Notes: generated from the letters alone by a model not told the origin. Positions 16 through 62,531 are shown, counted from the first letter of the stretch. The stretch: 64,000 nucleotides of DNA from an uncultured cyanobacterium (GCA_963793265.1 CAWBZI010000002.1:576001-640000), one strand, 5' to 3'. Numbers and translations: made by a program.

Positions 16-444
16 CTATTCAGCCGCTTTCTTACCGCCAAACAATCCCTTGATACTATTAATCGCACCCATTAAGCCGCGTTCGTTCCGATCGCGCTGC
101 TTAGTTGCCAGTTCAATATCATCATCCTTTTCACCCTTAAGCCGATACCCATACTCCAGAGTGTCCCGGCTTTTTTTCAACACAGGAAAAGCCCGGAACG
201 CGCCCTGAAGTAAATCGGCTTCGCTGTGATAAATCGCGCGGCTAATTTGGCTAGAGCGGCGGACTGCGATCGCACCAATCGGATACCACTGCTTAGTGCC
301 TTCACCCCGTACATACACCTCATACTCAGGCAGGCCATCGGTTTTCATTTTGTCGTACTGCTGAGAAGCCTTTTCCCGCTTCTGCGTACGCTCCGACTTA
401 GGTTTCTTAGGTGTTTTCTTCCCAAAACCGACTGGCTCAGACAT
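16..444 (-). CDS. Conserved cyanobacterial protein, HHL1-like
   Basis: 142-aa ORF; GFG N-terminus, basic helix, then GLPEYEVYVR..W.P.G and FP.LKK...LEYGYRLK segments recalled from the HHL1-like family. Confidence 0.6.
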   Translation of the reverse strand: MSEPVGFGKKTPKKPKSERTQKREKASQQYDKMKTDGLPEYEVYVRGEGTKQWYPIGAIAVRRSSQISRAIYHSEADLLQGAFRAFPVLKKSRDTLEYGYRLKGEKDDDIELATKQRDRNERGLMGAINSIKGLFGGKKAAE

Positions 445-487
445 AGTTCTTCTGGTGTTTTATGAACGTCATTTATAAAAGTTTACA

Positions 488-1129
488 TTATTGCACGCGA
501 GTATACTTTGCCCGGTATACCGGCAGGCCCTTTTCTTGCGTGACGCGCTCGCGATCTGTCTGGGCTGGAAATGGGCTTTCTATTAGCCAGCTAGTGCCTT
601 TGCGGGTAAAGGCAGCGTTTTCGTCAAAGCGATCACACATCTCCACACACACCTCCTCAATATCCGACTGTAGCCAAATCATTGCCCCTATAGGCATTAG
701 CTCTGCCAAAGCCTCAACCAGCTCCGGCTGCACCACCCGTCTTTTTTGGTGCCGCTTCTTAAACCAAGGGTCAGGGAACTGAATGCTCACAACCTGCAAA
801 GGGCAGCCGTTCGGCCAGTTAGCCAGCAGCGGCTTCAGTGAATTATTCGCATTACAAAAAACGAAGTGCAGATTTTTCTGTCCTGCCTGATCTCGTCTGA
901 TCAAAGCCCGCTCAACCAAAGGCTCTCGAATCTCTAACCCCAAAAAGTTCCAGTCTGGAACCCGATTGGCCATCTCCCGCACAAAATCACCCTTGCCGCA
1001 GCCAATATCCAAATGCAGCGGTCGCTGAGGGTTGGCAAATACCGCCTGCCAGTCGGGGGCATCAGCCGGATTGGCATACTTACTGCTGAGCGGATTAACG
1101 TGCTGTCGAACGCGGCGAATAGGGGGCAT
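488..1129 (-). CDS. trmB: tRNA (guanine-N7)-methyltransferase
   Basis: RVRQHVNPL N-terminus, LDIGCGKG SAM motif, GLEIR, FPDPWFKKRHQKRR motif. Confidence 0.95.
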   Translation of the reverse strand: MPPIRRVRQHVNPLSSKYANPADAPDWQAVFANPQRPLHLDIGCGKGDFVREMANRVPDWNFLGLEIREPLVERALIRRDQAGQKNLHFVFCNANNSLKPLLANWPNGCPLQVVSIQFPDPWFKKRHQKRRVVQPELVEALAELMPIGAMIWLQSDIEEVCVEMCDRFDENAAFTRKGTSWLIESPFPAQTDRERVTQEKGLPVYRAKYTRVQ

Positions 1130-1130
1130 T

Positions 1131-2060
1131 TTAGAGGCTCTCCGGCTCGCTTTGAGCCATTTGAAAATTTAACAGATAGGGAATGGCGTCCGTTTTCTTG
1201 GGCCAGCTTTTCCACACAAACCAGGCCCAGAAAGGGAAAGACACCGCTATTAGCACCAGGCTAGTTCTCCACTCCGATTGAATATCGCTTACCGTCGCAG
1301 TTTGATCGGCTACTGACATTCGAGAGAGCCAATCCATACCGACTGCCGCTAAATTGTTTAACGAGTGACACGCTACCGGCACCCAAAGACTACGCGATCG
1401 CACATACAGCAGCCCCATCACTAGCCCAAATAGGGTCAGCCCCAGCGGATTGCTAAAGTGCAGCACCCCAAACAATACCGAAGAAGCAATCATCCCTCGC
1501 CGCAGGCCCCACTTCACCGCCCATCTCTGAAGCAAAAAGCCTCTGAAGATGAGTTCTTCTACCAAAGGTGCGTATATCACTAGCAGAAACAGCATTAGCC
1601 AGTTATACACTCGCGGATACAGGCTTTCTGTTCCTCTCAACAGCTTACTGTTTTCCAATAAACCATTCACATAGTTCGGAAAACCGAGAGAGAGTACGTA
1701 GAAAGCGAGTAGAGAAATTCCAAGAGAAAATAGCAGCAGGCTAGCGACTAAGAGCACCCCATAGAAAATAGAAAACCGCGGCACTCGCTGCCCTATCAAA
1801 TATTTAACGTCTAGCCCTTCCTGACGGCCCGCCCATAAGATCACGCTGCCCACAATCGTTAGTAGTGAAATCGTTAAAATAGGCGTCGAAATCGGATCTT
1901 GTGATACTCGTAACAGAGGCAGCCAATAGTCCAGCGAGCCATACACTATGCCGACTAAGGGGGCGGCGATAAAGTAGGTGCTAAAAACCAAATAGCGACT
2001 CTGAAGTTTTGAGAAAGGGTTATGAGGTGATGAACTAGAAAATGAATTGGGCCTGTCCAT
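1131..2060 (-). CDS. CPBP (Abi/CAAX) family intramembrane metalloprotease
   Basis: Multiple TM segments; EELIFRG, FGVLH and CHSLNN motifs. Confidence 0.9.
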   Translation of the reverse strand: MDRPNSFSSSSPHNPFSKLQSRYLVFSTYFIAAPLVGIVYGSLDYWLPLLRVSQDPISTPILTISLLTIVGSVILWAGRQEGLDVKYLIGQRVPRFSIFYGVLLVASLLLFSLGISLLAFYVLSLGFPNYVNGLLENSKLLRGTESLYPRVYNWLMLFLLVIYAPLVEELIFRGFLLQRWAVKWGLRRGMIASSVLFGVLHFSNPLGLTLFGLVMGLLYVRSRSLWVPVACHSLNNLAAVGMDWLSRMSVADQTATVSDIQSEWRTSLVLIAVSFPFWAWFVWKSWPKKTDAIPYLLNFQMAQSEPESL

Positions 2061-2300
2061 TGGGGGGCGATCGCGAGTCCTAGTTCAAAAGTATTCGGAA
2101 TACACTTTTACAGCGCAGTAGCTATTATAGGAACCTTTTGTCATCGTCGCCTTTTGGATCGTTGCCTTTTAAGATGCCTTTTGAACAGTGCTTAGCAATC
2201 GCTTTAAATCGGTATGCACTTACGAAATTGCCACATACTCATAAAAGGCGTGAGCAATGTTGCTAGAGTAGCTGAGTAGTCAGGCTTTAGCCCATTTGCA

Positions 2301-8780: not shown

Positions 8781-8826
8781 GCAATAAATTTGCGATAGAA
8801 TAGTACAGTAGAACTAACTAGAGCCT

Positions 8827-12136: not shown

Positions 12137-13306
12137 TTGGCCAGAGTCGTCCTCCAGAACATTTCCAAGTCCTTCGATAGCCGCGCTAAAGCTGTCGAAG
12201 ACAAACCTCCGACAAAAGACCCCAAAAGCAAAGCGACGACTAGGCCAGATCCTGCGCGGCCTGTGCTCAGCCAAATAGATCTCACCGTCAACGATGGTGA
12301 GTTTATGGTGCTTGTTGGCCCTTCAGGCTGCGGAAAAAGTACGCTTTTGCGGCTTATTTCCGGGCTCGAAACGCTAACCAGCGGCAATATTCATGTGGGC
12401 GATCGCCTCGTCAACACCCTGCCGCCCAAGCAGCGCGACATCGCCATGGTGTTCCAAAGCTACGCCCTCTACCCACACCTCAGCGTCTATAACAATCTCG
12501 CCTTCGGCCTCCGCCGCAGCCGCCCGCGCCCTTCCAAAACAGAGATTTCCAAGCGCATTCAAAGCGTCGCTGACATGCTTCAGATTGGCGAACTTCTCGA
12601 TCGACTGCCCAAACAGCTCTCTGGTGGTCAAAAGCAACGTGTCGCCTTAGGCCGCGCCATGGCTCGCGATCCCCAAGTCTTTTTAATGGACGAGCCACTT
12701 TCTAACCTTGATGCTAAGCTACGCACCGAAACCAGAGCGCAGATTGTCAGCCTTCAGAGATCGCTCGGCACCACCACTATCTACGTCACCCACGACCAAA
12801 CTGAAGCAATGACGATGGGCGATCGCATCGCCGTCATGAACCAGGGTCAAATTCAGCAAGTCGCCCCCCCGCTAGAACTGTATCGCCAGCCCGCCAACCG
12901 CTTTGTCGCCGCCTTCATTGGCTCTCCACCAATGAACTTCATCCCAGTTACCGCAAAGCTTACGGCGGATGCTGCTCAGCTCGTGCATCCCGATTTTGCG
13001 GTGGCTTTACCTGCTGAATGGAGAGATGCGATCGCCCCCTATCAAAACCAACCCCTCACCCTCGGCATCCGCCCCGAACACATCGCCACCGGTCAAACCC
13101 CAGGCTCCATCCCCATCACCGTCACCCAGCTAGAAGCCCTCGGCAGCGAAACCTACATCCTCGCCACTCTCCCAAACAACCAAACCCTCCAGGCCCGCAT
13201 TCCAGCCGATCAACCCATCCAGCTCGGCAGCATTCTCCAAGTCAGCTTCCCCCCCGCTCAAATCCACCTCTTCGACCCCACAACAGAAGTCGCCGTCCGT
13301 CCATAA
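12137..13306 (+). CDS. Carbohydrate ABC transporter ATP-binding subunit (MalK/UgpC family)
   Basis: GPSGCGKS Walker A, LSGGQ signature, FLMDEPLSNLD, VTHDQ, C-terminal TOBE-like region. Confidence 0.92.
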   Translation: MARVVLQNISKSFDSRAKAVEDKPPTKDPKSKATTRPDPARPVLSQIDLTVNDGEFMVLVGPSGCGKSTLLRLISGLETLTSGNIHVGDRLVNTLPPKQRDIAMVFQSYALYPHLSVYNNLAFGLRRSRPRPSKTEISKRIQSVADMLQIGELLDRLPKQLSGGQKQRVALGRAMARDPQVFLMDEPLSNLDAKLRTETRAQIVSLQRSLGTTTIYVTHDQTEAMTMGDRIAVMNQGQIQQVAPPLELYRQPANRFVAAFIGSPPMNFIPVTAKLTADAAQLVHPDFAVALPAEWRDAIAPYQNQPLTLGIRPEHIATGQTPGSIPITVTQLEALGSETYILATLPNNQTLQARIPADQPIQLGSILQVSFPPAQIHLFDPTTEVAVRP

Positions 13307-13422
13307 TCCCAACAAAAAGCCCCACGAAAAAGGCAAAAAGCCACATCGCAGGGACACCAAACCAACACACTCAGAGCCTCATCTTTGGGGACGGGGGCCT
13401 CCGAATCTCCGAAACTCAAACC

Positions 13423-16912: not shown

Positions 16913-18238
16913 TTGGATTCAAAGGCGGCATTGAAGGTAGGGCTACTAGGATTAGGCACGGTGGGCACAGGCGTTGCCAAAATCCTTTTAGATCCTCAAG
17001 GTCGCAATCCTTTGCTCAAAGATGTGGAGATTAGTCGGGTGGGTGTGCGATCGCTCAAACCCCGAGACACTCCCCTCCCCAACACTATCTTCACCACCGA
17101 TCTCGGCAGCATCGTCACCGATCCTAATATCGACGTTGTAATTGAAGTGATTGGCGGCTTAGAACCTGCGCGATCGCTGATTCTCACTGCCATCAAAAAC
17201 GGCAAACACATCATCACCGCCAATAAAGCTGTCATCTCCCGCTATGGCGAAGAAATTTACGAAGCCGCTACCGCCGCAGGGGTCTACGTTACCGTCGAGG
17301 CCGCAGTCGGCGGCGGTATTCCTGTCATCACACCGCTGAAGCAAGCTCTCAGCGTAAACCGCATCCAAACCGTGATGGGCATTATCAACGGCACCACTAA
17401 CTACATTCTCACCCGAATGCAAAACGAGGGTGGCGACTTTGAGCCCATTCTTACTGACGCTCAGCAGCTAGGCTACGCCGAAGCCGACCCGACTGCTGAC
17501 GTAGATGGCTTAGATGCTGCTGATAAAATTGCTATTTTGGCGTCACTTGCCTTTGGCGGTCGCATCAACCGCGACAATATTTACTGCGAAGGTATCCGTA
17601 ACGTGAGCGCCGCTGATATTACGTATGCTGAAAATTTAGGCTTTGTGATTAAGCTGTTAGCGATCGCCAAACTCCCCGATAGTCCATCCAGCAGCTCACC
17701 TGACAGCACAAATACCTCAGACAGCATTCAAGTCCGCGTTCACCCCACTCTAGTACCCACCAGCCATCCCCTCGCCAGCGTCAACGACGTAAACAACGCC
17801 GTCCTCGTCGAAGGCGATCCCATCGGCCAGGTCATGTTCTATGGCCCTGGCGCAGGAGAAGGCCCCACCGCCAGCGCTGTCGTCTCCGACCTCCTACTCA
17901 TCGCCTCCAGTCTCGCCAACGGCACAAAGCCAAATCCCTTACTTACCTGCCCGCACCATCACACCCTCAGCATCATTCCTAACGCCGAAGTTGTCACCCG
18001 CCTTTACGTCCGCCTCCTCGTAAAAGACAGCCCTGGCGTCATCGGCAAACTCGGCACCTGCTTCGGCACCCACAGCGTCAGCCTAGAATCCATCGTCCAA
18101 ATCGGCATTCAAAACGGCCAGGTAGAACTCGTCGTTGTCACTCACGAAGTCCCAGAGGGCTCTTTCCAAAAAGCCCTTGCCGAGATCCGTCAGTTTGAAG
18201 AAGTTATCGATATTCCCAGCCTTCTCCACGTTCTTTAG
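16913..18238 (+). CDS. hom: Homoserine dehydrogenase with C-terminal ACT domain (start uncertain: TTG at 16883, 16913 or 16931)
   Basis: GLLGLGTVG, TANKA, EAAVGGGIP, GYAEADPTADVDG, GPGAG..PTASAV, ACT domain. Confidence 0.93.
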   Translation: MDSKAALKVGLLGLGTVGTGVAKILLDPQGRNPLLKDVEISRVGVRSLKPRDTPLPNTIFTTDLGSIVTDPNIDVVIEVIGGLEPARSLILTAIKNGKHIITANKAVISRYGEEIYEAATAAGVYVTVEAAVGGGIPVITPLKQALSVNRIQTVMGIINGTTNYILTRMQNEGGDFEPILTDAQQLGYAEADPTADVDGLDAADKIAILASLAFGGRINRDNIYCEGIRNVSAADITYAENLGFVIKLLAIAKLPDSPSSSSPDSTNTSDSIQVRVHPTLVPTSHPLASVNDVNNAVLVEGDPIGQVMFYGPGAGEGPTASAVVSDLLLIASSLANGTKPNPLLTCPHHHTLSIIPNAEVVTRLYVRLLVKDSPGVIGKLGTCFGTHSVSLESIVQIGIQNGQVELVVVTHEVPEGSFQKALAEIRQFEEVIDIPSLLHVL

Positions 18239-19146
18239 ATGTCTCAAGAAATCTCAGGAGAACGGCTCTATCAATGGAGACAATGGGCTATTCAACTGGC
18301 TCAAGAGAATGACGTTGACCCCAGCGAAGTCGATTGGCTGCTGCAAGGAATCACGCCGCTCAAGGGCCTATCGCTAAGATTAGACAGCTATCGAAATCAG
18401 TCCACTATCACTTGCGACCAATCACTTGATAGACTCACTGCTCAGTGGCAAAGACGAATTCAATGATCGAGTCCCTGTGCAATATCTCGTTGGAGAAACC
18501 CCCTGGCGAAATTTCTCTTTGAACTGTCTCACCTGATGTACTCATTCCTCGGCCCGAAACCGAACTCATCATCGATATCGCCAAGGCTTTAGCAGCACAG
18601 AGCCCTATTGCAGACCAGCAGCTTGTAGAAAATTGGGCCGATTTAGGAACAGGGAGTGGGGCGATCGCACTTGGCCTTGCTGACAGCTTCACCGAAGCCT
18701 CTATCCACGCCGTTGACATCAGCAAGCAAGCCCTAAAAATCGCTCAACACAACGCCAGGAAAAACCACCTTGCTCACCGCATCACCTTCCACAAAGGAAG
18801 CTGGCTATCCCCCTTATCAGCCCTCAAAGGCCAGCTCACTGGCATCGTCTCCAACCCACCCTACATCCCAACCCAAACCGTCCTTACACTTCAGCCCGAA
18901 GTCACCAATCACGAACCCCACCTCGCCCTAGACGGCGGCGTAGATGGCTTAGACTGCACTAAAACCCTCATTACGGATAGCGTTTCCCACTTACGTCCTC
19001 ACGGCATCTGGCTCGCAGAAGTTATGACCGGGCAAGCCGAAACCGTCACCCACTTACTCAGACAGCAAGGAAGCTACACTCACATCACGATTCACCAAGA
19101 TCTTTCAGGCATTGATAGATTCGTCTCTGCTCGCAAAGCACTATAA
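18239..19146 (+). pseudogene. prmC: Release-factor glutamine methyltransferase, interrupted by two +1 frameshifts (probably sequencing errors)
   Basis: Frame 1 to about 18460 (..QWQRRI), frame 2 18462-18521 (NDRVPVQYLVGETPWRNFSL), frame 3 18523-19146 (TVSPDVLIPRPETE..WADLGTGSGAIA..SNPPYIP..EPHLALDGG..RKAL*). Confidence 0.9.
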
Positions 19147-33395: not shown

Positions 33396-35591
33396 ATGGT
33401 TCAAGAACTTGATCGCATTCGTCTGAAAAACAAACAGAAAAGTCCTTTTCCTGAAACTGCGCCTGCGGCCTATCCTGTGTTCTATCGCACCTATAGCCGT
33501 CGGTTTGAAGGCGGGCGGCGTGAGAGTTGGCATGAGGTATGCGATCGCACACTCACCGGATTAGTAGAACTCGGCAAGCTCACTGACGAAGAGCGCGATC
33601 TGGTTTCTAAAATGCAGCGCAACCTCAAAGCGATGCCCTCGGGCCGATGGCTGTGGGTTGGTGGTACAGAGTGGAGCAAAAATCCTAAAAACTTTTCGGG
33701 CGCTTACAACTGCACAAGCACGAACGTTGTGGACTGGCGTGCGTTTGGCCTGATGATGGATTTAGCCATGATGGGCTGTGGTACGGGCGCGGTGCTGGAG
33801 CCAAAGTACATCAGTCAGCTCCCTGCGATTCGTAACAAGATTACGGTCAAGATGCGGGGTGATGTGGGCATGACCATTGCTAGCCAGCGTCGGGAAGAGG
33901 CAGATGTTGAGATAGATACTGAGAATAATCGGGTTGTAATTGTTGCAGGTGACAGCCGTCAGGGCTGGGTGAAGTCTTATCAAACGCTGCTAGAAACTTC
34001 TACGGATGAGCGGTTTGAGGGCGAGGTAGAGATCGTTGTAGACCTGAGTGACGTGCGGCCTGCGGGTGAGCGGCTGAATGGATTTGGCGGGATGGCGAAT
34101 CCGGTAAAGCTGCCTGAGCTATATGAGCGCTGCGCCAAAATTTTGAACAATGCGATTGGGCGAAAGCTGAATTCGATTGAGTGCTGCTTGCTGATTGATG
34201 AGGCTGCGGCCTGTGTGGTGGCCGGAAATATTCGAAGATCCGCTGGCATGAGGCAGTTTGATAGCAATGATGATGTTGCTACGGGCGCAAAGGAAAACTT
34301 GTGGCAGCAGGATGAGGCAGGTAATTGGCGAATTGACCCAACGCGCGATGTGCTGAGAATGGCAAATCATACGCGGGTTTATCATGAAAAGCCTTCAAAA
34401 GACGATGTGCTCAATGCAGTTCGCAAGCAATTTCATTCGGGTGAAGGTGCTATTCAGTGGGCAGGGGAAGCAGAGCGGAGAGCTGGTGGAAAAGGAAGAT
34501 ATGGTCTGAATCCATGCGGTGAGATTATTGGGCAGGATTTTCACTGCAACTTGGCTGAGATTCATCTGAACCAGATTTCACCAAGGGATGAGCAGGAGCA
34601 GGAAGACGCATTTAAGGCTGGCGCGATCGCTGTAGCCGCCCTCCTAAACCACCAATTCCAAGAACCTCGCTACCAGCAGTCCCGAGAGGAAGACCCGATT
34701 GTAGGCGTTTCCTTCACAGGCTTCTTTGACTTTTGCGTCAAGGCATTCGGTGTGGAATGGCTGCAATGGTTTGAAGATGGTCGGCCTGATACGATGCAGG
34801 GCTTGGAGTTTAAGGAAAAGGAAGCGGCTTATTTAAGCCGGTGGAAAAAGGTCGTGCATGAAACCGTTTGGGAGTATTGCGATCGCCACCAAATCCGCCG
34901 ACCCAACCGCTGCACTACCGTCCAACCAGCAGGCACCAAAAGTCTGCTTACGGGAGCATCTTCTGGCTGGCATCCGCCCAAGGCACAGCGATTCATTCGC
35001 CGCATTACCTTCCGCAAAGATGATCCGGTTGCATTAGCCTGTATCGCCTACGGCTACTCGGTGATTCCGTCACAGGCTGATAAGGATGAAAACGGCAACT
35101 TGCTCAACGATCCGTTTGATCCGCGCTGTACTGAGTGGCTCGTTGAGCTGCCGGTAGAGGTGGACTGGGCGAATTTGCCGGGGGCCGATGAGGTGGCGAT
35201 TGAGAAGTTCACGGCGCTGGCGCAGTTTGACTTTTATATGCAGGTGCAGAAGCACTACACCGCGCATAATACGTCTGCGACAGTGGAGCTAAGAGAGCAC
35301 GAGGTTGAGCCTTTGGCTGAGCGGATCTATAGCGCAATTGAGAATGACGAAGGGTATATCTCGGCGGCGCTGCTGGCGCGGTTTGATGATGTGCAGACGT
35401 TTCCGAGACTGCCGTTTGAGCCGATTACAAAAGCTGAGTATGAAAAGATGTTGGCAGGGGTGCGATCACGTCGAACCACTGAGAACTTCCATGCGGCATT
35501 AGAAACGCACGATGCGGGTGAACTGGTAGAAGCAGGCCCGGCAGGCTGTGACTCTGATAAGTGCCTGATGCCTGAGGCTAAGCCTGACTAG
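33396..35591 (+). CDS. nrdJ: Adenosylcobalamin-dependent (class II) ribonucleoside-triphosphate reductase
   Basis: PSGRWLW, AYNCTS, VVAGNIRRSA, GLNPCGEI, CNLAE, TTVQPAGTKS, C-terminal CDSDKC. Confidence 0.95.
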   Translation: MVQELDRIRLKNKQKSPFPETAPAAYPVFYRTYSRRFEGGRRESWHEVCDRTLTGLVELGKLTDEERDLVSKMQRNLKAMPSGRWLWVGGTEWSKNPKNFSGAYNCTSTNVVDWRAFGLMMDLAMMGCGTGAVLEPKYISQLPAIRNKITVKMRGDVGMTIASQRREEADVEIDTENNRVVIVAGDSRQGWVKSYQTLLETSTDERFEGEVEIVVDLSDVRPAGERLNGFGGMANPVKLPELYERCAKILNNAIGRKLNSIECCLLIDEAAACVVAGNIRRSAGMRQFDSNDDVATGAKENLWQQDEAGNWRIDPTRDVLRMANHTRVYHEKPSKDDVLNAVRKQFHSGEGAIQWAGEAERRAGGKGRYGLNPCGEIIGQDFHCNLAEIHLNQISPRDEQEQEDAFKAGAIAVAALLNHQFQEPRYQQSREEDPIVGVSFTGFFDFCVKAFGVEWLQWFEDGRPDTMQGLEFKEKEAAYLSRWKKVVHETVWEYCDRHQIRRPNRCTTVQPAGTKSLLTGASSGWHPPKAQRFIRRITFRKDDPVALACIAYGYSVIPSQADKDENGNLLNDPFDPRCTEWLVELPVEVDWANLPGADEVAIEKFTALAQFDFYMQVQKHYTAHNTSATVELREHEVEPLAERIYSAIENDEGYISAALLARFDDVQTFPRLPFEPITKAEYEKMLAGVRSRRTTENFHAALETHDAGELVEAGPAGCDSDKCLMPEAKPD

Positions 35592-35872: not shown

Positions 35873-36577
35873 GTGCAATCAGTTTATTGGTTTTGTTTTG
35901 TAATTGGCGGCGTTTTTGTTGCCCTGTCTATCTTTGGCGGTGGCGAACTGCTAGACGCGGACGGTGATTTTGACGCGGACGTAGATGTCGATTTCGACGC
36001 GGACGGTGATCTAGACGCTGATTTTGATGCCGATGTCGATTTGGATGCTGATGCGGATCTAGATACTGGTACAGATGTGCAGATGGACACCGATGTCGAT
36101 TTGCTGCGCGATCGCCGTCGCCGTCGCCGCATACCAGGCTGGCTATCAATGCTGATGAGCTTTAAGTTCTGGACGTTTGGCGGCTGCTTTTTTGGCTTGA
36201 CAGGGTTGGTAATTGGCGCGACTGAGCCAGGTTTGTCTGTGGCGGTTGTGTTTGCGATCGCCTTAGCCATTGGCTTAATCTGCGGTGGTACACTCGTCAG
36301 CGCTCTACGTAGCTTAAAAGGTCGTCAGGTCAGCAGCATGGTACGAAACGAAGATTTTGCTGGGCTGCTTGGCACTGTAGAGCTACCGTTCGATGCGAGT
36401 AGCAAGGGCAAAGTGGTTTTGGAAGTTGGCGGCAGTACGCTCCATTTGGTCGCACAAACCGATGAGGAAAAGGCTTTTGTAGTCGGAGAGCCCGTACTCG
36501 TGGTCGGTCGTACGAATAACCGGCTTTGGGTCGTCTCATCAGAAGGCAGCTTTAATTCAATCAGCGAAGAAGTTTAA
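35873..36577 (+). CDS. NfeD/YqiJ-like membrane protein with Asp-rich repeat loop (start likely GTG 35873)
   Basis: N-terminal TM, (D-x)n tract, two more TMs, C-terminal OB-fold-like GKV...A....F..GE.VLVV; directly upstream of flotillins. Confidence 0.8.
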   Translation: MQSVYWFCFVIGGVFVALSIFGGGELLDADGDFDADVDVDFDADGDLDADFDADVDLDADADLDTGTDVQMDTDVDLLRDRRRRRRIPGWLSMLMSFKFWTFGGCFFGLTGLVIGATEPGLSVAVVFAIALAIGLICGGTLVSALRSLKGRQVSSMVRNEDFAGLLGTVELPFDASSKGKVVLEVGGSTLHLVAQTDEEKAFVVGEPVLVVGRTNNRLWVVSSEGSFNSISEEV

Positions 36578-41337: not shown

Positions 41338-41856
41338 ATGAAGCATACGCTTTCTGTATTGGTTGAAGATGAAGCGGGCGTTTTGACCCGAATTGCCGGG
41401 CTCTTTGCTCGGCGCGGCTTTAATATTGAAAGCCTAGCGGTAGGGCCAGCCGAGCAGCCTGGCATCTCGCGGATCACGATGGTTGTGCCCGGCGATGATT
41501 TGGTGATTGAGCAGCTTACTAAGCAGCTATACAAGCTGATTAACGTGCTCAAAGTGGATGACATCACCGAAACGCCTAGCGTTGAGCGCGAGCTGATGCT
41601 GCTAAAGGTAAGTGCAAACGGCCAAAATCGATCGGAAGTCGTAGGGCTCGCTCAAATTTTTAGGGCGCGTGTGGTCGATGTCTCTGAAGAGTCGCTGACG
41701 CTTGAAGTGGTAGGCGACCCTGGCAAAATGGTGGCGATTGAGCAGGTGCTTGACCGATTTGGCATTACTGAGATTGCTCGTACAGGTAAGATTGCGCTCA
41801 CGCGTGAGTCGGGCGTGAATACAGAGTATTTGAAATCTTTGGAGAGCCGGGTTTAG
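41338..41856 (+). CDS. ilvN: Acetolactate synthase small subunit
   Basis: [38 protein letters not shown]. Confidence 0.96.
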
Positions 41857-43568
41857 GCGGGGGCGGAGGTGTAGGTGTTGAGTAGCGCGATCGCGTTCTC
41901 CAATGTATCGGCCTCAGCCATCGGCTTGTCATCTCGCCAGCGCAAAATCCGTGGGAAGCGAACGGCAATGCCTGACTTATGCCGCTTGGATTCAGCAATG
42001 CCTTCAAACCCGATTTCAAAGACGTGCAAAGGCTCGACCGATCTCACCGGGCCAAATTTTTCGAGCGTATGCCGACGAATCCAGCGATCCAGCTTCTCAA
42101 TTTCCTTATTGTCTAGACCAGAATAAGCCTTAGTAAACGGCACCAGCGTCTCGCCCTTCCAGAGCGCAAACGTGTAGTCAGTAAACAGGTTCGCCCGTTT
42201 ACCTGTACCTGCTTGCGCGTAAATCAACACGGCGTCTAGCGTCATCGGATCGACTTTGTGCTTCCACCAGTAGCCACGCTTACGGCCTACAAGGTAGGGG
42301 CTGTCTAGCGCTTTGAGCATTAAGCCTTCTGCGCCGTAGGTTCTAGAGTGCGATCGCCATTCTTGAATATCGGCAAAGCTCTCTATTGGTAAGGGATTTG
42401 CATAGCTGATACGGGTTTGAAGCGCGGGGTGATTGTCGATAAGTTGAGTGAGGAGGGTGCGGCGCGATCGCAGCGCCTTCTCCCGAATGTCCTCACCGTC
42501 AATTTCCAGCAAATCGTAAGCAATAAAGTGCACCGGGTTCTCAGCCAGCAGCTTCTTAGTCACCCGCTTACGTCCCAAACGCTTCTGCAAATAATTAAAG
42601 TCCAGCGGCCTAATCGTGCCATCTTTCGCTACGCTCTGCCCATCCCAACACACTACCTCACCATCAATCACGGTGCCCTGTGGCAGCTCCATCATCGCCT
42701 CGGCCAGCTCAGGAAACTGATGCGTCACCAAATCCTCGCCGCGCGACCATATAAACGTCTGCTCGGCCCGATGGATCATCTGAGCGCGAATGCCATCCCA
42801 CTTCCACTCCGTCTGCCAGTCTCTTTTCTCAGCCTCCGCGCCCTCTTCAGATCCTTCATCCTCAGACTCGCAATCAATTTCGGCCGCAAATTTCTCCACA
42901 TCAATTGGCGAGGCCAAAAAGAAAGGATAGGGCTGACTCGGTAGCGTATCGGCATCATCTGGATGCACCAGCGCCTCATAGAACGCTGCTGTCGGCTCAA
43001 TTTCACCCATCAGCCGGTGCGCCAAAACGGCCTCCGTCAGATCATATCCAGCCGCCAGCGCCTTAATCACTAGCTTAGTGCTCACCCCGACCCTAAAAGA
43101 GCCAGTAAGCACCTTATTTAGCACAAAGATCTCGCCCTCTGACAAATTTGCCCACCAGTCAATCACCAAATCCTTAAGCTGATTTTCGTCTGTTTTAGAA
43201 AGCTGCTTGACCTGAGGAATAATATCCTCCATCCATACGTGCAAAGGCGTATTGCTATCAGCATCAGAGGCACCTGTCGGCGCTATTGGCGTATCGCGTA
43301 GCAGTAGCGCGATTGTTTCTGCCGAATCACCCACGTGCGAATAGCTCTCTTCAAATAGCCACTCTGGAATATCTGAAATCTGTAGAAAAATCTCCCGCAA
43401 AATCCGCGACGTAATCAGACGTTTGCGGGTCTTGCCCAGTAGCAAGTAGAGTGCCCACACCGCATTCTCAGGGCGCTCCTGCTGAAAGTAGTGCTGGAGA
43501 GCTTTAACCTTTTCGTTAGTTGATGTCGTCGCATCAACGGCCTTGAAGAGCTGCGTGAACTTTTCCAT
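41853..43568 (-). CDS. ATP-dependent DNA ligase
   Basis: [10 protein letters not shown] adenylation motif, [37 protein letters not shown]. Confidence 0.93.
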
Positions 43569-56682: not shown

Positions 56683-56711
56683 AATATTAGAGTAGTCATA
56701 GAACTAGGCCG

Positions 56712-57188: not shown

Positions 57189-57194
57189 ACCCAG

Positions 57195-58616: not shown

Positions 58617-60425
58617 ATGCGACTGTCTCAAATGCTGTTTGTTACGCTGCGCGAAGATCCAGCGGAGGCAGAAATTCCTAGCCACAAGCTGCTGTTGCGA
58701 GCGGGCTACATGCGGCGTGTGGGTAGCGGCCTGTATGCCTATTTGCCGCTACTGCTGCGAGTGCTCAGCAAAATTTCAGACATTGTGCGCGATGAAATGA
58801 ACGCAACGGGCGCGCAAGAATGCCTGCTGCCTCAGCTTCAGCCTGCCTCACTGTGGCAAGAGTCAGGCCGCTGGGACACGTACACCAAAGCAGAAGGCAT
58901 TATGTTCAGCCTGGGCGATCGCCGCCAGCAAGAACTTGCCCTTGGCCCCACTCACGAAGAAGTCATCACCGCCGTTGCCCGCGACATGATCCGCTCGTAC
59001 CGACAGCTTCCGCTCCACCTCTATCAAATTCAAACCAAGTTTCGCGACGAGATCCGCCCCCGATTCGGCTTGATGCGCGGACGCGAATTCATTATGAAAG
59101 ACGGCTACTCGTTTCACGAGGATGCTGAGAGCCTGAAGCAAACGTATGACGAGATGTACCAGGCTTATAGCAATATTTTGCGGCGTACGGGGCTGGCATT
59201 TAGAGCGGTAGATGCCGACTCTGGCGCGATTGGTGGCTCGGGCTCTACCGAATTTATGGTGCTCGCTGAAGCGGGTGAAGATGAGGTGCTGTATACAGAA
59301 GATGGTAAGTACGCAGCGAACGTAGAGAAAGCTGTAACGCTGCCCCCCGATGCGGAGCCTTCTCCTTTTACGGCTTACGAAAAACGTGAGACACCGAACA
59401 CAGCGACTATCGCAGCGATGGTGAAGTTTTTAGACTGTTCACCGACGCAGGTTGTAAAAGACGTGCTGTATCAGGTGAGCTATGACAACGGTCGTCGGGT
59501 TTTGGTGATCGTGAGCATCCGCGCCGATCAGGACGTGAATGAAACCAAGCTACAAAATGCGCTGACGAACTTAGCCGGTAACTACGGAGGCTCGGCGGTA
59601 CTTGCGCTAGAGGTGCCCGACGAAGAGGCGCAGGCGAAGTGGGCAACAAAGCCTTTACCGTTAGGTTATATCGCGCCGAATTTGTCGGATGAGTACATCG
59701 GCAAAGCGGAAGGATTAGAGCCAAAGTTTTTACGTCTGGTTGATGAAACGGCGGTGGAGCTAAGGAATTTTGCAACCGGCTCTAATGAAAGCGGCTTTCA
59801 TGTGGTGGGTGCTAACTGGGGTAAGGAGTTTGAGCTGCCTGAGATTAAGGTGGATGTGAGAACGGCGGTGGCGGGCGATCGCGCTATCCACGACCCCAGC
59901 CAAATTATCCAAACTGCCCGAGGCATCGAAATCGGCCACATTTTCCAGCTCGGTAACAAATACTCACAGGCACTTGGCGCAACTTATACCAAAGAAGATG
60001 GCAAAGAAGCGCCGCTAGAGATGGGCTGCTATGGCGTGGGCGTTTCTCGCTTAGCGCAGGCAGCAGTGGAGCAGTCTTACGATAAGAATGGGATTATCTG
60101 GCCGGTTGCGATCGCCCCCTATCATGCCATTGTCGTTGTCCCTAATATCAGCGCGGCAGATCAGATGGAAGCTGCTGAAAAGCTGTATGCCGAGCTTAAC
60201 GCTGCTGGGGTTGAAACACTGCTAGATGACCGCAAAGAGCGGGCCGGGGTGAAGTTTAAAGACGCTGAGCTAGTGGGGATTCCGTTTCGGATTGTGACGG
60301 GGCGATCGCTCAAAGATGGCAAGGTAGAAGTGGTTAAGCGCGCTGATGGCGAAGCGCAGGACATGCCGATAGCAGACGTTGTATCAACGGTAAAAGGCTG
60401 GGTGGATGCGGCAATCGGTAAGTAA
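58617..60425 (+). CDS. proS: Proline--tRNA ligase (bacterial type with insertion domain)
   Basis: [52 protein letters not shown]. Confidence 0.97.
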
Positions 60426-60438
60426 ATAGAAGGCGTTT

Positions 60439-61263
60439 ATGGAAGTTATTACAGTTGTTCTTTCTAGCTTGCTGCTGCTGATTTCGCCGGTTGGTGTAGT
60501 TGTAGATCAAGTCGCCGAAGACGCTATTCGCTCACGGTTAGCGAGCGTAGAAAGCTTGGACGTGCGAGTAGATAACGGCCCATCTTTTCAGCTCCTTCAG
60601 GGCCGAGTTGATCGGGTACGGATTGCCGGGCGGGGCGTGGTGCCGACCCCTGGACTAAGATTTGAAGTTGCTGAGCTAGAAACCGATCCGATTGATTTGG
60701 CTTTTAAGGCGCTGCGGCAGGGTGAGGTGGTGCTAGAGGAGCCTTTGCAAGGGGCTTTGCATTTGGTGATTACTGAGGCGGATGTCAATGCTTTTTTGCG
60801 ATCGCCCACAGTTGCCCGACAGCTTGACGAGTTGAAAATCGGCTCGCTTACTCAGGCGCAGGCCAGAGAACGAGAACGCTATGAAATTGAGAATCCTTCG
60901 ATTGACTTTTTGGAGGACGATCGGCTGAAGGTTTCGCTGGATCTGGTGGACTTGGTGGAAGAGACGACGCTACAGATAGAGGCTGAGTCGGGATTGAGTG
61001 TTTCGGCGGGCGATCGCCTCACGCTTGTCTCTCCAGTGCTCACCGTGAACGGCCAGCCCGCACCTAATCAACTTGTAAAAGCGCTGCTAGGGAACGTGAA
61101 CGATCGCCTTAGCCTACAGAACTTAGAAAGTCGTGGCCTTACTGCGCGGGTGATCAATTTAGCAGTGCAGCCAGATAGCCTTGACTTAGCGCTATGGGTG
61201 CGTGTAGACCCCAGCGTGACAGCGCCAGTCGTAGCGGGCATTGATACGGGCGCTTTAGAATAG
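60439..61263 (+). CDS. DUF2993/LmeA-like protein
   Basis: N-terminal anchor, VRVDN.P.FQLLQGRVDRVRIAGRG, ELETDPIDL, TEADVN.FL. Confidence 0.75.
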   Translation: MEVITVVLSSLLLLISPVGVVVDQVAEDAIRSRLASVESLDVRVDNGPSFQLLQGRVDRVRIAGRGVVPTPGLRFEVAELETDPIDLAFKALRQGEVVLEEPLQGALHLVITEADVNAFLRSPTVARQLDELKIGSLTQAQARERERYEIENPSIDFLEDDRLKVSLDLVDLVEETTLQIEAESGLSVSAGDRLTLVSPVLTVNGQPAPNQLVKALLGNVNDRLSLQNLESRGLTARVINLAVQPDSLDLALWVRVDPSVTAPVVAGIDTGALE

Positions 61264-61311
61264 GTTATGCAGAAAATAAGCTTCTTACATTCTCCTTTAG
61301 TGTGTTAGCTC

Positions 61312-61926
61312 ATGACTTATACCTCTATCACCGACCGTCGGATTCGCTACCAAAGCTACCAAGAATATTTAAACAACGAGTCGCTATCTCCTGAGGGTAA
61401 CTATCGTCTACTTAGCACTGGAGAACTTGTTGAAGTGTCCTCAGAAGACGACCTCAACCAACTCATAGCAGTTCGTTTACTGCTGCAAATAGCTCAGTTA
61501 GAAAAAGGTGCTTTTGCAGAAAGAGTCCGAATTGGCAACAAAGAAATACAGGTGCGGCCTATTGGCGATCAGCGAGTAAATCGAAAACCTGATTTGGTCG
61601 TTTTACAGACTGAACATTTGGTAGTTGCTAAACAGGCTGTTCTACTTGATATGGTTCCGCCTTTGTTTGTCGCTGAAGTGGTGAGTCCGGGTAATGATAA
61701 TAGCGATAATTATTTGCAAGACTACGTTTGGAAACGGCAGCAGTATGAGGAGATGGGCATTCCTGAATACTGGATTATTGATCCGCATAGAGAGAAAGTA
61801 ACTGTTTTGGGGCTTGTTGATGGCACTTACTCCGATAGAGAGTATGTAGCACCTGAGCAGACCATCTCTAAGGTATTTCCGACACTTTCGGTAACGGTTC
61901 AATCTCTATTAAAAGGTGACTTGTGA
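61312..61926 (+). CDS. Uma2 family putative endonuclease
   Basis: RKPDL, P.FVAEVVSPG, DY.WKR.QY...GIPEYWIIDP. Confidence 0.9.
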   Translation: MTYTSITDRRIRYQSYQEYLNNESLSPEGNYRLLSTGELVEVSSEDDLNQLIAVRLLLQIAQLEKGAFAERVRIGNKEIQVRPIGDQRVNRKPDLVVLQTEHLVVAKQAVLLDMVPPLFVAEVVSPGNDNSDNYLQDYVWKRQQYEEMGIPEYWIIDPHREKVTVLGLVDGTYSDREYVAPEQTISKVFPTLSVTVQSLLKGDL

Positions 61927-62531
61927 TGACATATGCACTCACGCAAACTCGCTACCGCAACTATCAGGAATATCTAGATGATGAACGACTATCGCCAGAA
62001 GATGATTATCGTCTACTTAACACAGGAGAATTGATTGCTGTGCCGCCAGAAGATGACGATAATATTAGCGCCGCTTTTGTATTGGGTTTTTCGATTGCTC
62101 AGGCGACGGATGCGGCTGTCGTGAGTTTGATACGCACAGGCACAAAAGAGATTCAGGTTACGCCAGTGGGCGATCGCTGCGTAAACCGTAAGCCGGACTT
62201 ACTCATTTTGCATCCTGAACATAGAGAGATTGCAAAACAAGCGGTTCTTAAAGGGATGGTTCCGCCTTTGTTTATTGCTGAGGTGGTGAGTCCGGGGAAT
62301 GAGGATAGCGATAACTATCAGCGGGACTATGTTTGGAAACGGCAGCAGTATCAGGAGTGGAGAATTCCTGAGTACTGGATTATTGACCGGCATCGGGGCA
62401 CGGTAACAGTTTTAGTTTTAGTGGATGATTTGTATAAAGAAGCGGTTTATCGTGAGGATGAGAGGATACAATCTACTGTTTTTCCAGCTTTGGAAGTGAC
62501 GGCTGCTAAGGTGCTAACGGCTAGCGTTTAG
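61923..62531 (+). CDS. Uma2 family putative endonuclease (tandem paralog)
   Basis: RKPDL, PLFIAEVVSPG, RDYVWKRQQY, IPEYWIID; overlaps the upstream stop (GTGATGA). Confidence 0.9.
   Translation: MMTYALTQTRYRNYQEYLDDERLSPEDDYRLLNTGELIAVPPEDDDNISAAFVLGFSIAQATDAAVVSLIRTGTKEIQVTPVGDRCVNRKPDLLILHPEHREIAKQAVLKGMVPPLFIAEVVSPGNEDSDNYQRDYVWKRQQYQEWRIPEYWIIDRHRGTVTVLVLVDDLYKEAVYREDERIQSTVFPALEVTAAKVLTASV

What the first reader, a model, noticed from the sequence alone, without database searches (positions are those of the whole stretch)
266..62177. Base skew flips at HIP1 sites: G/T-rich on the 5' side, C/A-rich on the 3' side, regardless of coding strand
Seen (hand counts). HIP1 59875 in proS (+): 59841-59870 has 14G/2C, 59891-59920 has 4G/13C. 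HIP1 17047 in hom (+): 17021-17046 has 13G/1C, 17061-17090 has 2G/16C. HIP1 34879 in nrdJ (+): 10G/4C before, 5G/14C after. HIP1 13028 (+): 9G/6C before, 2G/15C after. Minus-strand genes show the same polarity: HIP1 42464 in the ligase, 13G/2C then 4G/12C; HIP1 28577 in htpG, 11G/5C then 4G/10C. The switch happens mid-gene, largely at synonymous positions, and C-rich tracts can run for hundreds of bases (13036-13340, 17670-18200, 18700-19000). Established: HIP1 is a highly over-represented cyanobacterial palindrome that contains methyltransferase targets (GATC, CGATCG) and its function is unresolved. Inference: a dyad-symmetric skew centred on a palindrome is the footprint expected if DNA is repeatedly nicked or cut and resected or resynthesised from the site. 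For example, 5'-to-3' resection exposes the 5'-flank strand as ssDNA, and C-to-T loss there gives exactly C-poor upstream and G-poor downstream. This is my best candidate for an undescribed system: HIP1-anchored repair or recombination tracts. The examples were picked by eye and not all sites are equally strong. I cannot confirm that the pattern is absent from the literature.
Basis: partly seen in the sequence, partly recalled or inferred. Interest (0 to 1): 0.88.

Follow-up and report, generated by a model that had tools for sequence, protein, structure and literature searches.

The report
G-to-C strand flip at HIP1
In this cyanobacterium the DNA just before almost every copy of the abundant palindrome GCGATCGC is rich in G and the DNA just after it is rich in C, mostly at silent codon positions, which looks like the scar of a one-directional DNA repair or recombination step that starts at this long-unexplained word.

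Summary
This scan had already noted it, on this genome and on others.

- **Size.** Over all 6,888 HIP1 sites of the genome, + strand GC skew is about +0.2 before the site and -0.2 after it. 84.2% of sites lean this way, against 46.7% of random positions. In the window, 62 of 72 do.
- **Controls.** None of the other 255 palindromic octamers does this, nor GATC or CGATCG alone. After masking HIP1, no 8-mer out of 40,630 does.
- **Where it lies.** It holds in + genes, in - genes and between genes. It peaks at fourfold-degenerate sites (+0.65/-0.60) and tails beyond 500 nt.
- **Base signature.** G and C swap while A, T and G+C content barely move. Plain C-to-T deamination therefore does not fit.
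- **Link to HIP1.** The skew largely follows HIP1 at orthologous positions.
- **Distribution.** It recurs in *Phormidesmis*-like, Nostocales and other lineages. It is near zero in several equally HIP1-rich genomes.
- **What does not predict it.** C5-methylase counts, MutS and MutL do not. Vsr, MutH and RecC are missing here.

My best reading (confidence 0.5) is that HIP1 anchors a strand-polar replacement or heteroduplex tract whose repair bias disfavours G on the 3'-side strand. I found no published description.

The parts
266..62177 (.). Span holding the window's 72 HIP1 (GCGATCGC) sites. 62 of them sit at a G-rich to C-rich switch.
13028..13035 (.). HIP1 site: 11G/5C in the 30 nt before it, 2G/16C in the 30 nt after it.
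13036..13340 (+). C-rich tract starting at the HIP1 site (41 G, 138 C; GC skew -0.54, below the first percentile genome-wide).
17047..17054 (.). HIP1 site: 13G/1C before it (17021-17046), 2G/16C after it (17061-17090).
17670..18200 (+). C-rich tract after the HIP1 site at 17660 (GC skew -0.32).
18700..19000 (+). C-rich tract after the HIP1 site at 18661 (GC skew -0.44).
28577..28584 (.). HIP1 site inside a - strand ORF (27614..29596): 12G/4C before it, 2G/12C after it.
34879..34886 (.). HIP1 site inside a + strand ORF (33396..35591): 10G/4C before it, 4G/15C after it.
42464..42471 (.). HIP1 site inside a - strand ORF (41853..43568): 14G/3C before it, 5G/13C after it.
59875..59882 (.). HIP1 site inside the + strand prolyl-tRNA synthetase-like ORF (58617..60425): 14G/2C before it, 4G/13C after it.

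Best explanation
HIP1 marks the start of a strand-polar DNA transaction. On each strand, the stretch 3' of GCGATCGC is repeatedly the replaced, new or incoming strand, and the stretch 5' of it is the kept or template strand. Tract lengths run from tens to more than 500 nt.

When the two strands disagree, the disagreement is settled with a base-dependent bias. That bias disfavours G and favours C on the 3'-side strand, so on the 5' side the order is G > A~T > C. Over evolutionary time this acts like a fixation bias, that is, a strand-biased gene conversion. It is not simple damage.

A concrete version is filtering by MutS-type mismatch recognition:
- A C on the discontinuous strand makes C:C, which is not repaired, or C:T, so it survives.
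- A G makes G:G or G:T, which are well recognised and removed.

What is shown here: the footprint, its specificity to HIP1, its base signature, its range, and its uneven distribution across lineages.

What is inferred: the existence of a nick or end at HIP1, the direction of strand replacement, and the role of mismatch repair.
For: 1. **Sign flip at distance 0.** It appears over 6,886 sites. In an unbiased scan of 53,734 8-mers, HIP1 ranks first (z 87.6). After masking HIP1 and GTGATCGC/GCGATCAC, nothing exceeds |z| 6 among 40,630 words.
2. **Strongest at fourfold sites.** GC skew is +0.65/-0.60 in codons 1-2 and still +0.09/-0.08 at codons 51-70, over 3,631 sites. The skew expected at the third codon position from amino-acid content is at most 0.09 in absolute value, so this is a DNA-level force.
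3. **Additive log-weights.** Relative to A and T, G is about +0.4 and C about -0.45 on the 5' side beyond about 5 codons. A, T and GC4 (0.58-0.60) do not change. Twofold sites agree: C/(C+T) is 0.20 upstream against 0.60 downstream, and G/(G+A) is 0.72 against 0.42 (the log arithmetic is mine). C depletion is alike in all eight fourfold codon families, so there is no dinucleotide context. This is the pattern a fixation bias gives.
4. **Presence in all settings.** It is two-sided in 54 of 54 100-kb regions. It is present in both gene orientations and between genes.
5. **Long tail that adds up between neighbours.** Polar skew is 0.25 at 4-24 nt and 0.038 at 501-700 nt for sites facing a gap of more than 2.5 kb.
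6. **It follows HIP1.**
   - Variants that keep CGATCG but lose an outer G or C show no skew. Plain GATC (12,848 sites) and CGATCG (794 sites) show none.
   - At orthologous positions in 14 *Phormidesmis*-like regions, D is 8.9 where HIP1 is kept (1,441 pairs) and 4.0 where it is two or more changes away (589 pairs).
7. **The same G/C swap recurs** at fourfold sites in two other lineages, G070 and *Nostoc linckia* NIES-25.
8. **Repair background.** MutS and MutL are present. In *E. coli*, C-C mismatches are not repaired by MMR (PMC5416779, passages).
9. **HIP1 and recombination.** HIP1 raises homologous integration in transformation in a way its authors call 'reminiscent of Chi' (bioRxiv 10.1101/2024.09.10.611283, abstract).
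Against: - No nick, end or enzyme at HIP1 is shown. Only assembled contigs of public runs were available, so molecule ends could not be mapped.
- MutS and MutL are each found in 28 of 29 genomes, including those without the skew. They therefore cannot explain why the effect differs between lineages.
- MutH, Vsr and RecC were not found in this genome. No known nick-directed or Chi-type machinery is at hand.
- The full ranking of mismatches by MutS is recalled, not tested here. Only the point about C:C is backed by a paper that I read.
- The ranking predicts T >= A on the 3' side. The data show A slightly above T in most distance bins.
- The polarity needed is a 5' end at HIP1 with the 3'-side strand treated as the one to be corrected. 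This is the opposite of what a resected 3' tail invading a homologue would give under the same repair logic (my reasoning).
- A residual skew (D 2.5-4) remains at orthologous positions that lack HIP1.
- Composition at equilibrium cannot by itself separate a fixation bias from an unusual mutation spectrum.
Confidence: 0.5

Rival explanations
1. Mutational footprint of exposed single-stranded DNA. A nick or break at HIP1 is resected 5' to 3'. The 5'-flank strand is left single-stranded and its cytosines are damaged. The outcomes include C-to-G, so the flank becomes C-poor and G-rich.
For: - The polarity and the dyad symmetry fit.
- In human meiotic break hotspots, the 2-kb flanks show strongly strand-asymmetric mutations, C>N and A>N on the forward strand. 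C>G is prominent among them (PMC7615360, passages).
- Closest to the site, C loss (about -1.05 in log terms) exceeds G gain (about +0.5).
Against: - T does not rise at fourfold sites and A does not fall. The polar T/A effect is under a tenth of the G/C effect.
- Deamination of C, with or without deamination of A, keeps purines and pyrimidines constant. Here purines go from 0.49 to 0.68.
- A model in which lesions on the kept strand are fixed and those on the replaced strand are erased predicts a T/A skew as large as the G/C skew (my reasoning). That is not seen.
- The model would need a spectrum dominated by C-to-G, which is unusual for bacteria (recalled).
- C depletion shows no sequence context.
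Confidence: 0.2
2. Direct weak selection for skewed flanks as part of what HIP1 does. One example would be G/T-rich 3' tails that load RecA well after a break at HIP1. Another would be a strand-composition signal read by a translocase or by the DNA-uptake machinery.
For: - Additive log-weights on G and C are what selection on local skew would give.
- The implied strength (log-odds 0.2-1.5) is in the range of codon-usage selection in bacteria (recalled).
- HIP1 sites are conserved: 65% of 2,232 alignable site pairs at 70-80% DNA identity.
- HIP1 has been reported to aid transformation (abstracts).
Against: - The effect reaches more than 500 nt at thousands of sites, and it shifts amino-acid content next to the site. 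That is a heavy load for a benefit that small per base.
- Several genomes as rich in HIP1 have no skew. G017 shows none at 239 intragenic sites, even in the adjacent codons. The same holds for G072 and for three genomes of family f5. So HIP1 is maintained without it.
- No sequence motif or complementarity is seen in the flanks.
Confidence: 0.1
3. Reverse causation: HIP1 arises or survives preferentially where a G-rich stretch already meets a C-rich one.
For: - The motif's own halves are G-rich and then C-rich.
- A residual skew is seen at orthologous positions without HIP1 (D 2.5-4.0).
Against: - One-off variants, the pool from which HIP1 would arise, show no skew. The exception is the C-to-T decay product GTGATCGC (552 sites).
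- Other palindromes with G-rich then C-rich halves show nothing.
- Lineage-specific HIP1 sites carry nearly the full skew in their own genome: D 10.1 against 11.9 for shared sites. The relative that lacks the site has D 2.7.
- Silent sites are saturated between these genomes (70-80% DNA identity), so shared context cannot be inherited.
Confidence: 0.05

Closest known systems
Strand-asymmetric mutagenesis around human meiotic double-strand-break hotspots (Hinch et al. 2023, PMC7615360)
   Same: - The asymmetry is site-anchored and mirror-image on the two flanks.
- The strand that runs 5' into the site is depleted of C.
- The scale is hundreds of bases to kilobases.
- It is ascribed to strand-specific steps after a break.
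   Different: - There, de novo mutations were observed (C>N and A>N). Here only equilibrium composition is seen, with A and T untouched.
- The anchor here is an 8-base palindrome present about 7,000 times in a bacterial genome.
- No break is shown here.
Replication-associated GC skew (sign change at origin and terminus)
   Same: - There is a G-over-C excess on one strand that flips at a defined point.
- The flip at HIP1 has the sign of a terminus.
   Different: - It flips at thousands of sites, not two.
- It decays within hundreds of bases.
- It is two-sided in all 54 100-kb regions.
- There is almost no accompanying T/A skew.
Methyl-directed mismatch repair (Dam/MutH) and Elhai's proposed G-5mC-directed repair at HIP1 (Elhai 2015, PMC4390886)
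   Same: - A short methylatable word is proposed as the entry point for strand-directed excision over up to about 1 kb.
- MutS and MutL are present.
- Elhai noted that HIP1 spacing of about 1 kb matches this reach.
   Different: - Elhai's model explains how HIP1 accumulates, not a flank skew. The flank analysis in that paper covered conserved adjacent positions only (section 2.4 passages).
- Classical MMR excises in both directions from the nick, so it gives no polarity.
- There is no MutH here.
- The skew occurs in genomes with no C5-methylase gene found (G058, G073, and the *Leptothoe* genome G024).
GC-biased gene conversion
   Same: A neutral transmission bias in heteroduplex repair writes itself into silent sites around sites where recombination starts.
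   Different: - gBGC favours G and C alike over A and T, and it raises GC content.
- Here GC4 stays at 0.58-0.60, and the bias sets G against C in a strand-specific way.
Chi sites and DNA uptake sequences
   Same: - They are over-represented short words tied to recombination or transformation.
- HIP1 has been likened to both.
   Different: - Chi and uptake sequences are asymmetric words. I found no report of a long-range flank skew for them (not searched specifically).
- RecC was not found here.

Membership tests
Replication-associated GC skew | Chromosome-scale domains, with the sign changing only at origin and terminus | tested here: not met
   The flip occurs at 84.2% of 6,888 sites. Both flanks are skewed in 54 of 54 100-kb regions, and 50-kb skews are irregular.
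Replication-associated GC skew | An accompanying T-over-A skew of comparable size | tested here: not met
   Raw TA skew is +0.04/-0.07, against GC skew of about +-0.2. At fourfold sites A and T are nearly unchanged.
Methyl-directed mismatch repair (MutHLS type; Elhai's HIP1 model) | MutS and MutL present | tested here: met
   G000 has one MutS_I match and one MutL_C match. Each family is found in 28 of 29 genomes, with or without the skew.
Methyl-directed mismatch repair (MutHLS type; Elhai's HIP1 model) | A MutH-type endonuclease that nicks at the methylated word | tested here: not met
   PF02976 has no match in G000, which is 98.97% complete. The literature says mutH is absent from all cyanobacteria (PMC5101192 passages). 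An unrelated analogue cannot be excluded.
Methyl-directed mismatch repair (MutHLS type; Elhai's HIP1 model) | Dependence on a C5 methylase acting in HIP1 | tested here: inconclusive
   - Genomes with no PF00145 match still show the skew: G058 D 4.97+-1.11, G073 D 3.09+-0.73, *Leptothoe* 10 of 10 sites.
- Three f5 genomes with 3-5 matches show none.
- The specificity of each methylase, and m4C enzymes, were not determined.
Very-short-patch repair (Vsr) | Vsr endonuclease | tested here: not met
   PF03852 has no match in G000.
Very-short-patch repair (Vsr) | A patch of about ten to a few tens of bases (recalled) | tested here: not met
   The footprint is still 0.038 at 501-700 nt.
Chi/RecBCD recombination hotspot | A RecBCD (or AddAB) enzyme that reads the word | tested here: not met
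   RecC (PF04257) has no match in G000. AddAB was not tested.
GC-biased gene conversion | A bias from A/T to G/C that raises local GC content | tested here: not met
   GC4 is 0.58-0.60 at all distances, while G and C swap.
Break-associated strand-asymmetric mutagenesis (human hotspots) | Mirror-image asymmetry, with C lost on the strand running 5' into the site | tested here: met
   Polarity as described in PMC7615360 (passages).
Break-associated strand-asymmetric mutagenesis (human hotspots) | A break at the site and damage to the single-stranded flank (C>N and A>N) | not testable with these tools
   Only contigs of public runs were available, so no ends could be read. A is not depleted at fourfold sites.
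DNA uptake sequence | Gross over-representation of a short word | tested here: met
   72 copies in the window against 1.75 expected. The genome holds 6,888 copies.
DNA uptake sequence | Preferential uptake of DNA that carries the word | not testable with these tools
   This needs an experiment. Published hints were seen only as abstracts.

The most novel reading that the evidence does not exclude
HIP1 is the entry site of a previously unknown, lineage-variable machine. It opens one strand at GCGATCGC and replaces or exchanges the strand on the 3' side for up to about a kilobase. This drives a strand-specific G-versus-C biased gene conversion at about 7,000 sites per genome. That process, rather than replication, would be the main source of strand asymmetry in these polyploid, transformable cyanobacteria. 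The factor responsible could be found by regressing the flank-skew amplitude against gene content across HIP1-rich genomes, where the polar skew runs from 0 to about 0.16.
Probability: 0.3. Interest if true: 0.9.

Novelty: new variant of a known kind. Interest (0 to 1): 0.8.

Why it matters
HIP1 has been known for 30 years and is the most over-represented word in most cyanobacterial genomes. Recent papers still call its function only beginning to be elucidated (PMC13756078 abstract).

A polar footprint hundreds of bases long, written into silent sites, says that something directional happens to DNA at HIP1. It gives three handles that can be used at once:
- **A quantitative trait.** The flank-skew amplitude differs between HIP1-rich lineages, so it can be mapped to genes by comparative genomics.
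- **A base signature.** G against C, with A and T untouched, narrows the chemistry towards biased mismatch resolution.
- **A prediction for the bench.** Expect polar co-conversion from HIP1, a C:C versus G:G asymmetry, and nicks at HIP1.

There are also practical consequences. Codon usage, local skew and even amino-acid content near HIP1 are shaped by a non-adaptive force. This affects gene design, codon-bias studies and skew-based origin finding in cyanobacteria.

Tried and rejected
- **Hairpin or cruciform (extended palindrome).** The flanks are no more complementary than their composition predicts. At +-1 they are less so (0.193 against 0.268).
- **Generic persistence of composition around G-then-C palindromes.** The other 255 palindromic octamers show nothing.
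- **A subset of sites or a repeat family.** The distribution of per-site D is unimodal and shifted as a whole.
- **Dependence on the adjacent bases or the reading frame.** The effect is present for all -1/+1 bases and all three frames.
- **Replichore-specific one-sidedness (Okazaki or Pol I idea).** Both sides are skewed in 54 of 54 regions.
- **C5-methylase content as predictor.** There is no relation. I could not tell which orthogroup is the CGATCG enzyme.
- **Vsr, MutH, RecC in G000.** None was found.
- **MutS and MutL as predictors.** Both are near-universal.
- **Alternative iterated palindrome.** GGCGCC in a *Calothrix* locus (38 sites) gives D -1.24+-1.18.
- **Young versus old HIP1 sites with close relatives.** The nearest of 40 same-genus genomes is only 83% identical in proS DNA, so silent sites are saturated.
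- **Polarised SNPs and molecule ends from public runs.** Only Logan contigs are kept, no ends are readable, and 40 of 226 difference rows were shown. No test was possible.
- **A blocking effect of a neighbouring HIP1.** An upstream neighbour within 120 nt changes the downstream skew little (-5.8 against -5.3). This is too weak to interpret.

Full report
**Setting.** The window is G000:C2:576001-640000 of a 5.68-Mb, 7-contig genome with 50.7% G+C. The closest named relatives of its prolyl-tRNA synthetase are *Phormidesmis* MAGs, at 86-90% amino-acid identity. The window holds 72 GCGATCGC (HIP1) sites, against 1.75 expected from shuffles. The genome holds 6,888.

**Check of the observation.**
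- The four hand counts given with coordinates reproduce exactly. The others agree within one or two counts, using 30-nt windows of my choice.
- The three long C-rich tracts are real. Their skews are -0.54, -0.32 and -0.44, each below the first percentile for its length. Each begins within about 30 nt after a HIP1 site.
- Averaged over all sites, + strand GC skew upstream is as follows:

| Distance upstream (nt) | GC skew |
|---|---|
| 1-3 | +0.42 |
| 7-12 | +0.24 |
| 13-24 | +0.18 |
| 25-48 | +0.13 |
| 49-99 | +0.07 |
| 100-150 | +0.04 |

- Downstream values mirror these. TA skew is small (+0.04/-0.07).
- I define D as (G-C) in -63..-4 minus (G-C) in +4..+63.
  - D>0 at 84.2% of 6,888 sites, against 46.7% of 34,440 random positions.
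  - The distribution is unimodal and shifted as a whole: mean 9.8, sd 9.3, against 0.0 and 7.9 for random positions.
  - In the window, 62 of 72 sites have D>0. Forty of them have both signs as described. Ten do not lean this way.

**Controls.**
- For a palindrome, strand symmetry forces any average profile to be antisymmetric. The real question is therefore whether the profile differs from zero.
- It is zero for the other 255 palindromic octamers. Weighted mean up-minus-down differences, grouped by half-site composition, run from -0.053 to +0.006. HIP1 gives 0.225. Only ATCGCGAT, which overlaps tandem HIP1, shows some.
- In a scan of all 8-mers with at least 40 copies (53,734 words), HIP1 is first (z 87.6), followed by words that overlap it.
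- After masking +-150 nt around HIP1 and GTGATCGC/GCGATCAC, no word out of 40,630 exceeds |z| 6.
- GATC alone (12,848 sites, D -0.60) and CGATCG alone (794 sites, D -0.15) show nothing.

**Genes.**
- I made my own ORF-based gene calls: 4,793 genes, 86% coding.
- The flip holds deep inside + strand genes (1,029 sites), deep inside - strand genes (1,038 sites) and at intergenic sites (541 sites). It rides on a sense-strand baseline of +0.04.
- It is concentrated at silent positions. At fourfold-degenerate sites, for 3,631 sites at least 230 nt from gene ends, the baseline is -0.02 and the skew runs as follows:

| Codons from site | Skew upstream / downstream |
|---|---|
| 1-2 | +0.65 / -0.60 |
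| 3-5 | +0.56 / -0.52 |
| 6-10 | +0.44 / -0.42 |
| 11-20 | +0.35 / -0.33 |
| 21-35 | +0.24 / -0.21 |
| 36-50 | +0.15 / -0.14 |
| 51-70 | +0.09 / -0.08 |

- The third-position skew expected from amino-acid content and genome-wide codon usage is at most 0.09 in absolute value. This calculation is the analytic form of a codon shuffle.
- Amino-acid content is itself shifted within about 10 codons of the site. The first-position skew expected from amino acids is 0.32 before the site and 0.01 after it.

**Base signature (728 sites).**
- At fourfold sites, G and C swap. Upstream, G is 0.48 and C is 0.10. Downstream, C is 0.48 and G is 0.12.
- A stays at 0.15-0.20, T at 0.21-0.25, and GC4 at 0.58-0.60.
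- The purine fraction goes from 0.49 far away to 0.68 upstream and 0.27 downstream.
- At sites where only transitions are silent, C/(C+T) is 0.20 upstream and 0.60 downstream. G/(G+A) is 0.72 upstream and 0.42 downstream.
- In log terms (my arithmetic), beyond about 5 codons the 5' side reads G about +0.4, A and T about 0, C about -0.45. In the nearest two codons, C loss (-1.05) exceeds G gain (+0.5).
- C depletion is similar in all eight fourfold codon families (x0.50-0.67). There is therefore no dinucleotide context.
- A transition-only process, such as deamination of C with or without deamination of A, cannot change the purine fraction. Models in which common lesions on the kept strand are fixed predict a T/A skew as large as the G/C skew. 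The polar T/A effect is under a tenth of that.
- Additive log-weights with unchanged A and T are what a fixation bias (conversion or selection) gives.

**Range.**
- For sites facing a gap of more than 2.5 kb to the next HIP1 (about 300 per side), the polar skew is as follows:

| Distance (nt) | Polar skew |
|---|---|
| 4-24 | 0.25 |
| 25-60 | 0.17 |
| 61-100 | 0.117 |
| 101-150 | 0.084 |
| 151-200 | 0.075 |
| 201-300 | 0.056 |
| 301-400 | 0.045 |
| 401-500 | 0.046 |
| 501-700 | 0.038 |

- With nearer neighbours, the opposite flank of the next site cancels the skew. This gives a sawtooth.
- Both flanks are skewed in all 54 100-kb regions, and all seven contigs are alike.
- The flanks show no complementarity beyond what composition predicts.

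**Dependence on HIP1.**
- Among the one-off variants lying more than 150 nt from a HIP1, those that keep CGATCG but lose an outer base show no skew.
- The exception is GTGATCGC/GCGATCAC (552 sites, +0.134/-0.113). This is the C-to-T product at the cytosine reported to be methylated. GCAATCGC is weakly skewed.
- I aligned 14 *Phormidesmis*-like regions around proS, which are 70-80% identical in DNA.
  - HIP1 is kept at 1,441 of 2,232 alignable site pairs.
  - D in the other genome is 8.9 where HIP1 is kept, 5.9 where it is one-off (202 pairs) and 4.0 where it is two or more changes away (589 pairs).
  - Centred on G000, D is 9.2 against 2.7+-1.0 (67 pairs). In the reverse direction it is 11.9 against 2.5+-1.6 (46 pairs).
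- These pairs are not independent. A residual skew without HIP1 remains unexplained. It could come from amino-acid conservation, from recent loss, or from shifted sites.

**Other genomes: named loci.** In 80 named loci of about 21 kb, pooled D is as follows:

| Group | D | Sites with D>0 |
|---|---|---|
| *Phormidesmis*-like | 8.43+-0.45 | 279 of 341 |
| Coleofasciculaceae/*Microseira* group | 6.10+-0.81 | 107 of 144 |
| *Leptothoe*/*Halomicronema* group | 4.73+-0.62 | 100 of 142 |
| *Nodosilinea* group | 4.34+-0.61 | 140 of 214 |
| Nostocales | 3.98+-0.44 | 171 of 259 |

**Other genomes: unnamed handles.** I sampled 60-166 kb from each.
- Strong: G070 (D 9.13+-1.31).
- Intermediate: G058 (4.97), G065 (4.45), G073 (3.09), G071 (2.94), G018 (2.82), G110 (2.47), G080 (2.18).
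- About zero:
  - G017: -0.45+-0.47, 281 sites, 2.8 HIP1 per kb.
  - G072: 0.30+-0.84.
  - G098: 0.37.
  - G114: 0.89.
  - G089: 0.77.
  - G020: 0.93.
  - G108: 1.33.
  - G016: 1.34+-0.49.
  - G014: 1.69+-0.55.
- Six sampled genomes had too few HIP1 sites to score.
- At fourfold sites, the same G/C swap with A and T unchanged recurs in G070 (507 intragenic sites, +0.58/-0.67) and in *Nostoc linckia* NIES-25 (288 sites, +0.43/-0.43 on a baseline of -0.15). G017 (239 sites) shows nothing, even in the adjacent codons.
- HIP1 abundance and the flank skew are therefore separable. The skew is not a by-product of whatever keeps HIP1 abundant.
- An alternative iterated palindrome, GGCGCC in a *Calothrix* locus, shows no flip.

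**Gene content.**
- G000 has eight PF00145 matches, corresponding to seven C5-methylase genes (one split, one a pseudogene), one MutS and one MutL.
- It has no Vsr, MutH or RecC.
- The number of C5-methylase genes does not track the skew.
  - Genomes with none still have it: G058, G073 and *Leptothoe*.
  - Three f5 genomes with 3-5 such genes lack it.
- Two methylase orthogroups are widespread, but I could not assign their specificity.
- MutS_I and MutL_C are each found in 28 of 29 genomes, so they do not discriminate either.

**Mechanism.**
- The data call for a process with four properties:
  - it is anchored at the full 8-mer;
  - it is polar along each strand;
  - its tract lengths vary from tens to more than 500 nt;
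  - its outcome favours G over C on the 5'-side strand with little effect on A and T.
- My best reading is that the strand 3' of HIP1 is repeatedly the discontinuous (new or incoming) strand, and that disagreements are settled by mismatch recognition.
- C-C mismatches are not repaired by MMR (PMC5416779, passages). That G-containing mismatches are the best recognised is recalled, not tested.
- Alleles with C on the discontinuous strand would then be transmitted, and alleles with G removed. This gives C > A~T > G there, and its mirror on the other flank.
- The reading fits the G/C specificity and the twofold-site data. It does not fit the small A-over-T excess on the 3' side.
- It needs a polarity that I cannot derive from a known pathway, and it needs an unknown HIP1-specific initiator.
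It has a precedent at human break hotspots (PMC7615360, passages). It would need a spectrum dominated by C-to-G.
- Weak selection on flank skew cannot be excluded from composition alone. The no-skew, HIP1-rich genomes argue that HIP1 does not need it.

**Literature.**
- Full-text searches:
  - 'highly iterated palindrome' with 'skew' gave 4 papers.
  - HIP1 with GCGATCGC gave 18 papers.
  - cyanobacteri/GC skew/palindrom/flanking/synonymous gave 136 papers, 15 of them listed.
- Term look-ups for skew, flank and asymmetr, with a few other terms that differed from paper to paper, found no description of a flank skew in Xu 2018, Elhai 2015 or Rodriguez-Cruz 2026.
- Elhai examined only conserved positions adjacent to HIP1 (section 2.4 passages), and I read his section 3.4 in full.
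- I did not look at any supplementary files.
- Subscription-only papers are outside the library.
- Earlier notes of this scan report the same phenomenon on this genome and on others. They are not independent evidence.

**Limits.**
- Gene calls are my own approximation.
- Amplitudes in other genomes rest on samples of 60-400 kb.
- Related genomes are not independent.
- No close relatives, raw reads or experiments were available. Mutation, conversion and selection therefore cannot be told apart here.

Noticed in passing
G000:C4:92803-94930 (locus L101:1270-3397), outside the window: A C5 DNA methylase with an N-terminal HTH domain is split into two overlapping frames, of 371 aa and 134 aa. Its C-terminal motifs lie in the second frame. 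It sits next to an intact SinI-type restriction endonuclease gene (PF09570, E 1e-96). A broken methylase beside a whole endonuclease is odd. It may be an assembly error.
   Followed up: partly
window 36254-36261: In contigs of one public metagenome run (X1) that otherwise nearly match the window, position 36255 reads T instead of C. This turns that HIP1 into GTGATCGC. Genome-wide, that variant is the commonest one-off form (552 sites away from HIP1) and the only one that keeps the full flank skew.
   Followed up: partly
genome-wide, positions -3..-1 and +1..+3 around HIP1: Longer palindromes are avoided. The bases at -1 and +1 are complementary in 19.3% of sites, against 26.8% expected from their separate frequencies. 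This holds although G is favoured before the site and C after it.
   Followed up: no
14 Phormidesmis-like regions around proS (G000:C2:621617-649422; L016-L020, L042, L043, L046, L048, L050-L053): HIP1 is kept at 1,441 of 2,232 alignable orthologous positions, although the DNA is only 70-80% identical. This agrees with the published claim that HIP1 sites are conserved.
   Followed up: partly
window about 62788-63034, inside the - strand ORF 62614..63885: This stretch matches many overlapping places about 126 nt apart in relatives' contigs (for example G029:C9:60924-61715). That suggests a tandemly repeated coding unit in the homologous genes.
   Followed up: no
L078 (Calothrix sp. FI2-JRJ7 locus, 21.8 kb): There is no HIP1 at all, but 39 copies of GGCGCC. 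This matches the alternative iterated palindrome reported for some *Calothrix*. It shows no G-to-C flip (D -1.24+-1.18 over the 38 scorable sites).
   Followed up: partly
G000, all contigs: GC skew in 50-kb windows ranges from -0.11 to +0.14. It shows no clear two-domain pattern within contigs, so a replication origin cannot be read from skew here.
   Followed up: no
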